The position numbers were made by a program, and so were the translations under genes. This document shows, piece after piece, positions 10,280 through 35,724 of a stretch of 64,000 nt of DNA. Every line of letters begins with the position of its first letter. The first letter of the stretch is position 1. Below the pieces are notes generated by a model, which was not told the origin of the DNA, searched no databases, and worked only from the letters and a program-made list of their open reading frames with translations. Source of the DNA: Eledone cirrhosa (taxonomy: Eukaryota); NCBI GenBank assembly GCA_964016885.1, contig OZ024741.1, positions 391,716,001 through 391,780,000 on the forward strand, given 5' to 3'.

Positions 10280-10315
10280 CTTTACCAGTTTCGCAGTTCT
10301 TATGCTTTTCAAAAG
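10280..10315 (-). ncRNA. Minimal hammerhead ribozyme, U3-A8 core (TTGAAAA)
   Basis: CTT-TTGAAAA-GCA..TGC-GAAA-CTGG-TA-AAG. Confidence 0.55.
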
Positions 10316-10399
10316 TAGAATTGAAATGGAGGGTTTGTGGTTTTTCTCGCATCTGGTTGGTGTTCGAATGTTTTGGAATCTCCTAAAAATTAATGTCAA

Positions 10400-13352
10400 G
10401 TGACTAAACTCTACCCCAATCATCCTCCCCAAAAACACCAAATAAAACCCATCCCGAATGAACCAGAAAACCAACAAAAACTTAGAGAAAAGATGACCTT
10501 AGAAAAGTTTAAAATAGAAATAGATCTGTTGCGGTTAAGCGCCAACTCCAACGAAGAAAAATTCAAGTCACTCGACCACAGAGGGAAACAGAAATCTCAA
10601 GGAACTCTGAAGGCCTACTCTATGAAAAAACGATGGGAAAAAAACGATTGGGAAAAAAACGCCACCTGGTTCAACAGCTATGAAATGGCTTTCAAAAATG
10701 AACAACATACAGGTAACCATTTTTAAAACAAACTAAAACTCACACACCACACTCATAACAAAAAAGTAACAAAACGTCCAACATATCCCCAGCAAAACTA
10801 TGACGATAATCCCAGAACCCATAGAGAAAACTATAACCCTACTAAAAAATAACCGAATGTCCCCAACACAAGACAGGACCCGATCCGCAGATCACAAACC
10901 ACACAAAACCTGTTCCAAGACCGTAGACTCCAACCCACACAGAACCTGTTCCAAAATCGTAGATCCCAACCCACACAAAGGAACAAAATTTACAACCCGG
11001 ACCATCAATAAACCGAACCTCAATACGTATTGAGGTTCGGTTTGTTGATGGTCCGTACGAGACCACACAACAACAGGGGAAAAGCCATTAGATATAATAA
11101 TACCCATGAAAAAACAATTCAGAAAAATAATTTGGTGACACAAACCGATTTTGAAAAACCAAAAATAATCAACCTTTCAAATACAAACCTATCAGCCCAA
11201 CAAATTAAAATTCTCTCCAAGGGACTGAAATCACACCAACACCACAATACTCTAAGCTCAATGAGATAAATGACGATATCTCACACTTCTGTAGAAAATT
11301 ACGTCTAACAGAGGAATTTTTTGACAAGGAGAATAACGACCAATCAATTGTACGGAATAAAAGCAACTACAACCCAACAAAGGGCAGGAGCAGAGTTCTG
11401 GACAAATTTTGTGACCACATAGCAACTTTCCCATACCATGAACTACCGCAACCTAAACCCAAACCGAACACGAGTCGAAGGGAATGGGAGATTATCCATG
11501 AATTAAACATTGTAATTAAGGAAGCGGACAAGGGAAGTACTGTCGTCATTGTGGATGCTCAACAGTATAAAAATCTATGTTCTCTCTCTTACATGACACT
11601 AACTACTATAAAAGAGTAAAAAACTACCAACAATCAAAAACGATGACACATTCATTTGTCGATACCAGGAAGACTTAACTAAAAAGGAACGCGATTATTT
11701 AACACATTTTGAATACAAAACCAGCAACCTTTACGGACTTCCGAAGATAACGATGCCTGTAAATAATCCACCTCAACCTGCGTGAACACACAACTCCTCA
11801 CTGACCTTAAATGAAGACCAGTTGTAGCGGGCCCACAATGTGAAACACACAGACTGAGCAACTTTATAGACATACTACTAAAATCAATTCTCAAACACAT
11901 ATCAAGCCTTGTAAGAGACAATCAGGACCTCTTAAACCACCTCCCCAAACATGTCAACAACGACACTATTATTGTGTCTTTCGATGTAGTGAATCTCTAC
12001 ACAACGATCCCACACCAATACGGACTAGAAGCAATAGGATTCTGGCTAGAGAAATATCCCAATGAGATACGTGACAGAATAGAAAAAAGCTTCATCACCG
12101 AGGGATTAAAATTCATTTTACAGAACAACTTTTTTTATTTCGATGGCAGTACTTACAAGCAAATATCGGGGTCTGCGATGGGTACAAAAGTCGCTCAAAC
12201 TTACGCTAACTTAGTCATGGCATACTTGGAAGTCCAGATATATGAACAGTCCAAATCAAAATACGGATTGAACTTCCACAAATATTTATCAGAGAATTGG
12301 AAACGCTACTTGGCCTTATTCTTTGGTCTCACACACTCGACCAACTAAATGATTTCAAAAATTTAATAAACGGCATCAATAACCACATCTAATTCACAAT
12401 GGAATACAACCAAGATCAACTCCCATTTCTGGACATCTTAATCTTAAAAAAGACACAAATATTGAAACTGACATACACTACAAACCAACAGATTCCAAAC
12501 AATATCTGCTATTCACCTCCAACCATCCAAAGCACTCGAAGACGAACATCCCTTTTAACGTAGCAAGAAGAATTTGCACAATCGTCTCCAATTATGAAAC
12601 GCGAAATAAAAGACTTCAAGAATTAAAGGAAATTCTGCTCGAGAGAGAGTACCCACTATTACTAATAAATAATGGAATAGAAAGGGCTAAAGCAATAGGC
12701 ATTGATGAATTACGAAAACAGAAACAAATTCAAGGTACGTCCAATATTCTATCATATATCTCAATACACAACCCAAGAAATGCGGAAGCATACAACACTA
12801 TTCACAAGAACATACCACTATTGAAACAAGACCCAAGAATGAAAAAAGCCCTTGAAACACACAAAATAATCAAAAGCAAAAGACAACCGAAATCACTAAA
12901 AACATTACTCACCAATGCCGAATTACCCACCACAAACCCACAACCAACTGTCAAAAAATGTGGTCGCTCTAATTATGGAACCTGCACTCACCTCATTGAA
13001 GACACCATGTATACATTTCAATCAGGACAAAATTTTGTTGTAAAAAATCACTTCACTTGCTCATCAAAAAATTTAGTTTTGCCATTAAATGTAAAGGATG
13101 CAATGAAGATTATATAGGGCAAACTAAACTCACACCTAGAAACAGAATGACAATTCATCGCTAACAATTACGAGACCCTACCACAAGACAGATACCACTC
13201 AGTGCACATCTAGACATATGCGCAAGCAATAAGACACCCAAATTCCAAGTCTTCCCGCTTTATCTTTGCGCTGACAATACAAAAGACCAAATACGAATAA
13301 ATAAGGAAAATATGTTTATTCAAAAATATAGACCAGCATTAAATATAGTTTA
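10400..13352 (+). pseudogene. PLE reverse transcriptase / GIY-YIG endonuclease with frameshifts and stops
   Basis: INLSNTNLS..ILSKGL, IKEADKGS, SFDVVNLYTTIPH, QISGSAMGTKVA..YANL, LPFLDI, YKPTDSKQYL, CGRSN.GTC, FTCSSKN, YIGQT. Confidence 0.9.
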
Positions 13353-13369
13353 ATATACATTATGTTAAC

Positions 13370-33071: not shown

Positions 33072-33822
33072 CATACATACATACATACATACGAACAAAT
33101 AAATTGGGTTCACATATACACACACATTATATACATACATACTAAAGTATATATGTATGCATATATGTAAGTATGAAGGGTGTGTGTGTGTGTTCAACTT
33201 ATATGTTCTCATAATCAGCTATTCATTGAAACTGTTCAGGATAATTAATATGGTAGAATTCGCAATCATAATAATAAATCGCTAATATATAATATACAAA
33301 TATCTTCTCTTAGTAAACAAACCTAAAACAAACAATATGTTGGCGATTCCAATGAAATTTATTCAATTATGGAGTAGGAGAGACAATATATTTAAAACAC
33401 CATTGTTGCATTAGCTATTGGCCAAGCATAATTGTTACACTTCCATTAGCTTGCGGTTTGTTGCTGTCTTTATATATCAATCGAAAAATAGATGAAATAT
33501 ACTTACTGGATAAAATATTTTCAGCAGATGTTTTCCTCTTAAAAATCCTATTTAAGTATCAAATGCAATTTACGAACTATTATGGTGGAAAACTTAAAGG
33601 TTTTTATCTCCATTAAATGTGGAAAGGAAAAGTGCAAAATTTAATGAAAATCTTTCGAAAAATTCATAGAATAACTCAGTCAGGCATGTGCAATGAATTG
33701 ATATGTAAGAAGTTGATGTATATAGCTTTATAGTGTGGTGTATATATATATATATATATATATATATATATATATATATATATATATATATATATATATA
33801 TATATATATATATATATATATA

Positions 33823-35330
33823 TATTGGTAAACGGAATAGAAAATGCTGACAAATTGTTCACAGTTGAAAAATGGTTTAATTAGGAATAAAAGAGTATTA
33901 GTGATTGTATGGGTTAGTATTCAGTTGTGGTTTTAAGTTTTTAAGTTTTTACCGGTTGCGCATTTCTAAATGCTTTTCAAAAATAATTTTGAGATAGAGT
34001 GTCCGTGCTGTTTGCTCTGATCTGATTAGTTTTGGGAATTCTACCTGTTTTTATGTTTAAAAAATGGCTCCAGCGTTATTTTTGTGTTGCAAAAATGCTT
34101 GTGGTCAAAACAATTTTGATTGGTCGGTAGAGGTCATGTGAATGTACACATCTCTACCCACATATAAACACATATAAACACATCTCTACCCACATATAAA
34201 CACAATGACACACGTAAACACACATGCTCTATGGTGCAATACAAAAAAATATATGTGCATATATATGTATGTATATATGTATATATATATATATATATGT
34301 AGTGAAAATATATATGTGTGTGTGTGTGTGTATATATATATAGTGAATATCATTTCACACCTTTTATTGTTAAGATTGTTGATGTTCTATTAAGAGAACC
34401 GATTTTACTGAAAAAATCGAATAATGTACACCATTTTACCAGGGGGGAAAAAAATACTGGTCCACCCACACACGCACACACACACACACACACATGTGTA
34501 CACAAACACATACACACGCGTACATCAACATACAAAGAGACTTATACACACACACACACACACACGCACTTCTCCGTATAAGACAAAAGCTGAAAAATAT
34601 CTTTTGACCTTCGAATGACTCTGCTGTGTGTATGTGCGCACACACACACACACACACACACACACACACACACACTTATCTTAATAGCCATTTGACACAC
34701 ATCGCTGGTGGCTATTGTCGCAGCATCGAACACCTTACTACTACTACTACACACACACACACACACACACACACACACACACACACACACACACACACAC
34801 ACACACACATATTTGTTGTGAAAGAGTCATTTCTCAATCTTGGCGCAAAACCAATTTTTTATCCACATGACCTCTACCGACCAATCAAAATTGTTTTGAC
34901 CAATAATTTTTGCTGGAGCCACTTTTCTAACATTTTAACATAAAAACAGTCTTGGCGCAAAATCAACTTTTTACATTCGCATGACCTCTACCGACCAATC
35001 AAAATTGTTTTGACCACAAGCATTTTTGCAACACAAAAATAACGCTGGAGCCATTTTTTTAACATAAAAACAGGTAGAATTCCCAAAACTAATCAGATCA
35101 GAGCAAACAGCACGGACACTCTATCTCAAAATTATTTTTGAAAAGCATTTAGAAATGCGCAACCGGTAAAAACTTAAAAACTTAAAACCACAACTGAATA
35201 CTAACCCATACAATCACTAATACTCTTTTATTCCTAATTAAACCATTTTTCAACTGTGAACAATTTGTCAGCATTTTCTATTCCGTTTACCAATATATAA
35301 TAACTTGTGTGTTACACCTCTATTCTTTTA
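33823..35330 (+). mobile_element. Non-coding PLE derivative with ~320-bp near-perfect inverted copies (33823-34146 / 34972-35297)
   Basis: Arms are reverse-complementary, with a partial direct repeat at 34838-34950. U3-A8 hammerhead-like motifs with GAAA changed to GCAA at 33947-33983 (minus) and 35135-35171 (plus). Long (TA)n on both sides. Confidence 0.78.
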
Positions 35331-35680
35331 ACTATATATATATATATATATATATATATATATATGTATGTATGTATATATATATATATATATATATATA
35401 TATATATATATATATATATATATATATATATATATATATATATATATATATATAATATATACAGTATTTACGTATCGAGAGAGAAAGAAAAAAAAGGGGA
35501 GGATAGGTGATACATATAGTTATTTGCCAAGTAGCGTATGCCAAAGGTGCTCGATACTAGTGCCGGCAGTATTAAATATTCGAAGTGTTAATATTTAGTG
35601 GGCTAGAGAGTTAGCAGAGCGTAAGCACGTGGGAAAGTAAGAAATCGGAGAATAGACCGTTAAAACATGTTTATTTAAAA

Positions 35681-35724
35681 CACCACCTACGTACGTTTCG
35701 CCCAGTTGGGCTTCTCAAGGGCAT
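35681..35724 (-). ncRNA. Hammerhead ribozyme with U3-A8-type core (TTGAGAA)
   Basis: GCCC-TTGAGAA-GCCCA/TGGGC-GAAA-CGTACG-TA-GGTG; the stem I register is ambiguous. Confidence 0.6.

What the first reader, a model, noticed from the sequence alone, without database searches (positions are those of the whole stretch)
10280..35724. Hammerhead core with C3-G8 replaced by U3-A8 in several unrelated PLE families
Seen: TTGAAAA replaces CTGANGA in the Neptune-type pLTR (10280, 14326, 21174, 32559), in the 33.8-35.3 kb element (33947, 35135) and in a Naiad 3' UTR (18306); TTGAGAA occurs at 35681. In each case it lies between a stem I and a stem II closed by GAAA (GCAA in the 34-35 kb pair) plus a short stem III. 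Established: positions 3 and 8 form a tertiary Watson-Crick pair, and compensatory variants have been described elsewhere. Inference: the same double change in different sequence contexts implies selection for function, possibly lower or tuned activity, rather than decay.
Basis: partly seen in the sequence, partly recalled or inferred. Interest (0 to 1): 0.75.

Follow-up and report, generated by a model that had tools for sequence, protein, structure and literature searches.

The report
Penelope hammerheads with swapped core pair
These are the ends of jumping genes carrying a predicted self-cutting RNA in which one core base pair has switched from C-G to U-A, likely several times independently; that switch is already in print, but one family with about 10,000 copies has also changed a second core letter and likely cuts poorly or not at all.

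Summary
In detail: all eight sites are U3-A8 minimal type I hammerheads in pLTRs of Penelope-like elements (PLEs). They are six insertions from four families. U3-A8 is each family's master state (over 99% U3 in 24,886 Neptune-type copies; 96 of the first 100 listed in family D), not decay. Corrections: the 'Naiad' is a Hydra-clade PLE, and the 33.8-35.3 kb element is a sister Neptune family, not unrelated. Switches still look independent at least three times: family C has C3-G8 sister families, and grouping C with D is rejected (p-AU 0.005). No sampled family fixes a 3-8 mismatch. This supports purifying selection on the pair, not demonstrated tuning. U3-A8 in PLE hammerheads was published in 2014 (same UUGAAAA core, Schistosoma), and this scan noted it on other DNA. 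The less ordinary part is family B: GCAA (A13C) is fixed in 10,492 copies against 137 others, so a protein-coding PLE family amplified with a doubly altered, probably crippled core. Cleavage is untested; a 5'-truncation excess at the cut site in families C and D is a weak hint only.

The parts
10280..10315 (-). Family A (Neptune-type) U3-A8 hammerhead in the inverted 5' pLTR arm (10216-10372); stem III ACUGGU, private change
10400..13350 (+). Broken Neptune-type PLE ORF: DKG, RT core, CxxxxCxxC-type linker, C-terminal GIY-YIG; many stops and frameshifts
   Evidence: linker intact in other copies
14326..14361 (+). Family A U3-A8 hammerhead in the 3' pLTR (14269-14425)
18306..18407 (-). Family C (Hydra clade) U3-A8 hammerhead, 75-nt stem II, U10.1-U11.1 mismatch, stem III ACGGUCGU (self-complementary with G-U pairs)
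   Evidence: 7 of 40 scored genomic copies 100% identical over 241 nt at the top bit score
18995..19420 (-). C-terminal GIY-YIG endonuclease of family C with CxCx5C linker
21174..21210 (-). 5'-truncated family A pLTR with U3-A8 hammerhead (extra A after A9, one stem II mismatch)
32554..32597 (+). 5'-truncated family A pLTR, best-formed U3-A8 hammerhead: stem I 3 bp + 2-nt bulge + 3 bp, stem II GCAG/CUGC, stem III ACCGGU
33947..33983 (-). Family B (Neptune-type sister of A) hammerhead with U3-A8 and C13 (GCAA), left arm 33819-34146
35135..35171 (+). Family B hammerhead with U3-A8 and C13, right arm 34972-35299 of the same insertion
35681..35724 (-). Family D (Hydra clade) U3-A8 hammerhead, core UUGAGAA, stem II GCCC/GGGC, stem III ACGUACGU
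36105..37388 (-). 3' part of family D ORF ending in a Hydra-type endonuclease, about 400 nt upstream of the hammerhead
17990..18060 (+). Comparison: family E (Hydra) canonical C3-G8 hammerhead; further copies at 16742 (+), 17834 (-), 37609 (-)
20722..20839 (+). Comparison: family F (Hydra, nearest relative of C in the endonuclease tree) with canonical C3-G8 and a 90-nt stem II

Best explanation
These are minimal type I hammerhead motifs in the terminal repeats of Neptune- and Hydra-type Penelope-like retrotransposons, in which the C3-G8 core pair has been replaced by U3-A8, likely at least three separate times, and they are predicted to cut weakly after GUA as dimers joined through the palindromic stem III. 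Shown: the motifs, their position in pLTRs, fixation per family, covariation of 3 and 8 across families. Inferred: the switch runs by two transitions through a tolerated U3-G8 wobble in the master element, and purifying selection keeps the pair and the rest of the core; the cut would process tandem precursor RNA, probably helped by the element's protein. Family B additionally fixed A13C and has a 3-bp stem I, so its ribozyme is likely impaired and cleavage likely not essential for its spread.
For: Fixation: 158 of 24,886 A/B matches are not U3, and the 100 listed all keep A8; 44 G8 matches to a looser pattern are all U3, none C3; family D 96 of the first 100 of 1,132. Covariation with a descriptor blind to positions 3 and 8, in 1.4 Mb of evenly spaced sample at score 13 or more: C3-G8 113, U3-A8 12, U3-G8 3, C3-A8 0, 141 hits in all against a shuffle mean of 18. 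Sister switch: family C' has the same long-stem architecture with CUGAGGA; C nests with C3-G8 families F and C' (97/95), C+D rejected as one clade, p-AU 0.005. Stems change compensatorily while the core stays: A versus B stem I C-G to U-A and stem II G-C to U-A; an old U3-A8 group with several stem II forms, 53 of 70 U3-A8 (counted by hand). Folding gives stem II and an intermolecular ACCGGU helix for 32562 and family B. Papers: PLE minimal hammerheads cleave weakly as dimers and include U3-A8 families (PMC4209133); natural U3-A8 and U10.1-U11.1 variants (PMC3088659); PLE hammerhead is protein-assisted and not needed for insertion in vitro (PMC11167929). Weak hint: excess 5' truncation at the cut site in D (19 events versus 4 and 8 in control windows) and C (26 versus 5 to 13).
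Against: No cleavage data here. In one comprehensive mutagenesis only the G3-C8 swap rescued activity; other single and double mutants of that region, which would include U3-A8, were low (PMC9901934, type III construct). Family A shows no truncation peak at the cut site (24, 21, 15, 11, 26 over positions 0 to -4 in the first 100 of 386). Stem I is not recovered in the minimum-energy folds of A, B or C. Family B spread with C13, so core conservation is not absolute. The endonuclease tree has 10 rows, 148 columns and weak deep branches; 3' UTR exchange between families could change the count of origins. No C3-G8 Neptune relative was linked to an ORF, so the Neptune switch is inferred from the general PLE consensus.
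Confidence: 0.7

Rival explanations
1. U3-A8 was positively selected as a slower ribozyme that leaves enough uncut precursor for reverse transcription.
For: Repeated independent fixation; the U3-A8 families A and B are very abundant; U3-A8 is likely slower (PMC9901934); uncut RNA was the main template in vitro (PMC11167929).
Against: C3-G8 clusters outnumber U3-A8 clusters 22 to 7 and also amplify. Two transitions through a wobble in an AT-rich genome are the cheapest route; G3-C8, which needs transversions, forms no multi-locus cluster in the sample. No rate data.
Confidence: 0.14
2. The U3-A8 motifs no longer cleave; the fold is kept as a binding or dimerisation element for the element's protein, or as a relic.
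For: Family B reached 10,492 exact copies with A13C while keeping stem II and the palindrome; weak stems I; no cut-site peak in family A; catalytic mutants did not reduce insertion in vitro (PMC11167929).
Against: A dead ribozyme need not keep 3 and 8 paired or U4, G5, A6, A9, G12, A14 and the UH site across families whose stems are unalignable; weak cut-site excess in C and D.
Confidence: 0.14
3. Chance resemblance or independent decay of CTGANGA in dead copies of an AT-rich genome.
For: TTGAAAA is a common word; some window copies carry decay changes.
Against: Genome-wide fixation, zero matches for the reversed-pattern controls in those calls, family C copies at 99-100% identity.
Confidence: 0.02

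Closest known systems
U3-A8 minimal hammerheads of Schistosoma mansoni Cercyon PLEs (Cervera and de la Pena 2014, PMC4209133; families Sm3, Sm4)
   Same: Same covariation, in pLTRs; Fig. S3 lists UUGAAAA and UUGAUAA cores, with CUGAAGA in the S. japonicum counterpart and a UUGAAGA (U3-G8) example in Saccoglossus. About 1,300 hits there.
   Different: Here in Neptune- and Hydra-type PLEs, with a 4-6 nt palindromic stem III insert, several independent origins in one genome, tens of thousands of copies, a 75-nt stem II in C, and fixed C13 in B; all 56 examples in Fig. S3 have GAAA (their descriptor required it).
Natural hammerhead core variants (Perreault et al. 2011, PMC3088659)
   Same: U3-A8 covariation and a U10.1-U11.1 mismatch seen in nature.
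   Different: Mostly tertiary-stabilised monomers; A13C is not among the variants in the passages I read.
Hydra-clade PLEs (Craig et al. 2021, PMC8557442)
   Same: RWK, DKT, CxCx5C linker, C-terminal endonuclease, insertion in (TA)n, hammerhead present.
   Different: The paper calls their hammerheads canonical; C and D carry U3-A8, and C and F have 75-90 nt stems II. I did not read the hammerhead sequences in its File S2.
Poseidon element PAc of Anolis (Frangieh et al. 2024, PMC11167929)
   Same: pLTR hammerhead with a 3-8 pair shown by swap rescue; protein-assisted cleavage.
   Different: C3-G8 core; different PLE clade.

Membership tests
Minimal type I hammerhead of metazoan PLEs | Core N3-U4-G5-A6-N7-N8-A9 ... 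G12-A13-A14-A15.1 ... U16.1-H17 with 3-8 paired | tested here: met
   Families A, C, D: U3-A8, GAAA, UA.
Minimal type I hammerhead of metazoan PLEs | A13 in GAAA (family B) | tested here: not met
   C13 in 10,492 copies, other letters in 137. B has the hammerhead fold but fails the consensus core.
Minimal type I hammerhead of metazoan PLEs | Stem II hairpin, usually closed by G10.1-C11.1 | tested here: met
   A, B, D have G-C; C has U-U then 4 bp, shared with its C3-G8 sister.
Minimal type I hammerhead of metazoan PLEs | Short palindromic stem III allowing dimers | tested here: met
   ACCGGU, ACGUACGU, ACGGUCGU.
Minimal type I hammerhead of metazoan PLEs | Stem I of about 4-6 bp | tested here: inconclusive
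   A 3+3 bp with bulge, D 2+2 with bulge in most copies, C 4 U-A pairs, B 3 U-A pairs; not recovered in most minimum-energy folds.
Minimal type I hammerhead of metazoan PLEs | Location in pLTRs flanking an RT-endonuclease ORF | tested here: met
   Downstream of the endonuclease in A, B (4 of 30 loci), C, D; upstream of the next ORF in tandem copies of C and D.
Minimal type I hammerhead of metazoan PLEs | Self-cleavage after H17 | not testable with these tools
   Only an indirect truncation count, weakly positive in C and D, flat in A.
   Endonuclease is C-terminal; ORFs after the hammerhead begin with RT N-terminus, RWK and DKT.
Hydra PLE (families C, D, E, F) | RWK, DKT, CxCx5C linker, CxxC and CxH around conserved E and N, C-terminal endonuclease | tested here: met
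   against the description in PMC8557442; F judged on its endonuclease only. No tree with reference elements was built.
Neptune PLE (families A, B) | DKG, CX2-5CxxC linker, C-terminal GIY-YIG | tested here: met
   A; B: linker and endonuclease about 44% identical to A, DKG not examined in B.
Neptune PLE (families A, B) | Placement in an RT phylogeny with reference Neptune, Nematis and Poseidon elements | not tested
   No reference sequences on hand; Nematis shares a linker, so the label rests on motifs.

The most novel reading that the evidence does not exclude
Family B is a protein-coding Penelope-like family that amplified to more than 10,000 copies with a hammerhead carrying both U3-A8 and A13C. 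Either this is a natural, active core variant not found in my searches, or it is in vivo proof that hammerhead catalysis is dispensable for PLE spread while the fold and dimer palindrome are kept. With sister pairs A/B and C/C' in one genome, the role of the PLE hammerhead becomes directly testable.
Probability: 0.45. Interest if true: 0.6.

Novelty: new variant of a known kind. Interest (0 to 1): 0.36.

Why it matters
The function of hammerheads in Penelope-like elements is still open. One genome here supplies matched natural pairs: C (U3-A8) versus C' and F (C3-G8), and A (A13) versus B (C13). They allow a direct test of whether cleavage rate matters for transposition. It also shows that searches demanding CUGANGA and GAAA miss tens of thousands of PLE hammerheads. 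The headline observation itself, U3-A8 in PLE hammerheads, is a decade old.

Tried and rejected
Rfam scan: no hammerhead model among 133 matches. DNA search for family B in the genome returned nothing because common words are skipped; patterns were used instead. Two patterns were mis-written and caught only indel variants; one search's 30 loci were still used to show that B has an endonuclease, and they are biased to a one-T-deletion subset. Idea that an old group is fixed at U3-G8: rejected, 53 of 70 are U3-A8, 6 U3-G8, 1 C3-A8, none C3-G8. A lone C3-A8 candidate near window 29346 (-) has no second copy in the held loci and is treated as chance. A second hammerhead that might compensate in family B: none seen in 6 long B loci. 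First endonuclease tree had bad rows; 7 of 16 were dropped and one added. Three A3 clusters were set aside as non-ribozyme repeats (scores 12.1-13.4, within shuffle range). RNA evidence: no RNA holder listed; contigs laid on family B showed no listed variant at positions 3, 8 or 13 but cannot show ends or expression. Cut-site truncation control for C was mis-registered and filtered by eye; the test was not run for B. Papers not held: Lunse 2017, Przybilski and Hammann 2007, Martick and Scott 2006, Scott 2013.
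Full report
Observation. Each reads stem I, UUGA(A/G)AA, stem II, G(A/C)AA, a short self-complementary stem III, then UA. A descriptor for this finds 8 in the window and 0.04 on average in 100 shuffles (written after seeing the sites). Two pairs are inverted arms of single insertions (10216-10372 with 14269-14425; 33819-34146 with 34972-35299), so the eight sites are six events.

What the elements are. [quoted passage not shown] Family B (33980, 35138) is not unrelated: its pLTR aligns with A's at about 71-76% over 120-200 nt, and in 4 of 30 B loci an endonuclease about 44% identical to A's lies about 1 kb upstream of the hammerhead. 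Families C (18403) and D (35718) lie 400-600 nt downstream of C-terminal endonucleases with a CxCx5C linker; in tandem copies the ORF after the hammerhead starts with the RT N-terminus, RWK and DKT. These are the Hydra features given by Craig et al. (PMC8557442; passages read).

Family states in the genome (G000, 3.0 Gb). The A/B pattern with 3, 7, 8 and 13 left open has 24,886 matches, the first 100 all U3-A8; 158 have another letter at 3 and the 100 listed keep A8; a looser G8 pattern gave 44 matches, all U3. Family D: 1,132 matches, first 100 are 96 U3-A8, 2 C3-A8, 1 A3-A8, 1 U3-G8, no C3-G8. Family C is young: the 40 best copies are 99-100% identical; a pattern for the 3' half of C and its sister has 2,039 matches. 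The rare mismatches look like ordinary mutation after insertion.

Covariation across families. I scanned 140 evenly spaced 10-kb stretches with a descriptor blind to positions 3 and 8. At score 13 or more: 141 hits, C3-G8 113, U3-A8 12, U3-G8 3, C3-A8 0, others 13; block shuffles give 18 hits spread over all cells. Clustering all held loci, clusters seen in two or more loci were C3-G8 22, U3-A8 6, U3-G8 1, and three with A3 that I set aside as noise. The U3-G8 cluster was picked by my own G8 pattern and its group is 53 of 70 U3-A8 (hand count). Fisher's test on 22 versus 7 gives 6e-7, which is overstated because clusters are related and over-split.

Independent origins. Family C' has the same stem I flanks, the same U-U opening and a long stem II, but CUGAGGA in most copies (of 7 C' rows: 2 CUGAGGA, 1 UUGAGGA, 1 CUGAGAA, 1 CCGAGGA, 1 truncated upstream of the core; L133 adds CUGAGGA). 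In an endonuclease tree of 10 rows, C groups with F (93/88) and C' (97/95), both C3-G8, and forcing C with D is rejected (p-AU 0.005). With the Neptune pair that makes at least three switches, if 3' UTRs follow their ORFs. No C3-G8 Neptune relative could be linked to an ORF.

Family B. GCAA is not damage: 10,492 exact copies carry C13 and 137 carry A, G or T. B keeps a 5-bp stem II and the ACCGGU palindrome and differs from A by compensatory changes in stems I and II, but stem I is only three U-A pairs, and I saw no second hammerhead in six long B loci. A13 belongs to the consensus core, and changes at most core positions cut activity sharply (PMC3088659, passages); I found no measured A13C rate (search, no papers, two unrelated listings). 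That A13 substitutions are strongly inactivating is recalled, not read.

Mechanism. Shown: structure-compatible sequence, position in pLTRs, fixation, covariation. From papers: PLE minimal hammerheads do not cut as monomers and cut weakly as dimers (PMC4209133, parts 1-2 of 4 and supplement parts 1-2 of 3 read); a Poseidon hammerhead needs the element's protein, and its catalytic mutants still insert in vitro (PMC11167929, passages); in a type III hammerhead only G3-C8 rescued, other double mutants were low (PMC9901934, passages). Inferred: U3-A8 is reached by two transitions through a U-G wobble and is a weaker but acceptable pair; selection removes master elements with an unpaired 3-8; two pLTR copies in a tandem transcript pair through stem III and cut after GUA. 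Tuning by positive selection is possible but not needed.

Indirect test of cutting. Following a lead from an earlier scan note, I counted copies whose 5' end falls at the predicted cut. D: 27 rows, 19 events after removing 2 one-base deletions and collapsing duplicates, against 4 of 6 rows upstream and 8 of 9 rows downstream (p 0.001 overall, 0.03 against the downstream window). C: 26 of 30 rows against 5 to 13 of 87 rows in a mis-registered control. A: flat over positions 0 to -4, though higher than at -5 to -7 by a rough reading. Microhomology with TA targets blurs positions and events were collapsed by hand, so this is a weak hint.

Novelty. U3-A8 in PLE hammerheads is in print: about 1,300 hits in S. 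mansoni, including the same UUGAAAA core, with C3-G8 in the S. japonicum counterpart; a search for 'U3-A8' with 'hammerhead' returns only that paper, and 'C3U' with 'G8A' none. Natural U3-A8 was first noted in 2011. The scan has 168 notes holding these words in at least 23 genomes (unchecked). What I did not find described: repeated switches within Hydra elements, 75-90 nt stems II, and the fixed U3-A8 plus C13 family. Lunse et al. 2017, Przybilski and Hammann 2007 and the hammerhead sequences in Craig's File S2 were not seen and may cover part of this. The bioRxiv retrozyme paper was read in part 1 of 5 only and was not used. Verdict: real, correctly recognised, largely known; interest 0.36.

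Noticed in passing
window 20722-20839 (+); L098, L119, L036, L054, L116: Hydra-type or similar hammerheads with 60-95 nt stems II and a perfect palindromic stem III; standard short-loop descriptors would miss them.
   Followed up: partly
L295, about 250 nt from its end on the minus strand: Single U3-G8 hammerhead candidate with strong stems (score 18); could be a family at the wobble intermediate or one mutated copy.
   Followed up: no
L096, L166, L175, L134, L291, L250, L273: Further U3-A8 families with a UUGAUAA core and different stems, beyond the four in the window.
   Followed up: partly
L144 8749-9730; L305: Tandem 311-bp repeat with a C3-G8 hammerhead in each unit, retrozyme-like.
   Followed up: no
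window 19435-19744: Fold-back insert with 154-nt arms 2 nt apart, at the 5' junction of the family C copy; it attracts spurious Rfam miRNA hits.
   Followed up: no
window 37502-41188: Near-full-length Hydra element (family E) with inverted pLTRs; the 3' hammerhead near 41105 has lost most of stem II.
   Followed up: partly
window 35155-35167 (+): C13 in family B creates a second 6-nt palindrome (UGCGCA) next to ACCGGU, which could change how the RNA dimerises.
   Followed up: no
window 1264-3630 (+) and 62764-63999 (+): Non-LTR retrotransposon ORFs: RVT_1 with zf-RVT, and an APE-type endonuclease.
   Followed up: no
window 50500-57100: Tandem array of about 140-bp units each holding a CA microsatellite.
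   Followed up: no
window 22984-23818 (-): Another diverged Hydra-type ORF fragment with no hammerhead of its own found within 2.5 kb downstream.
   Followed up: partly
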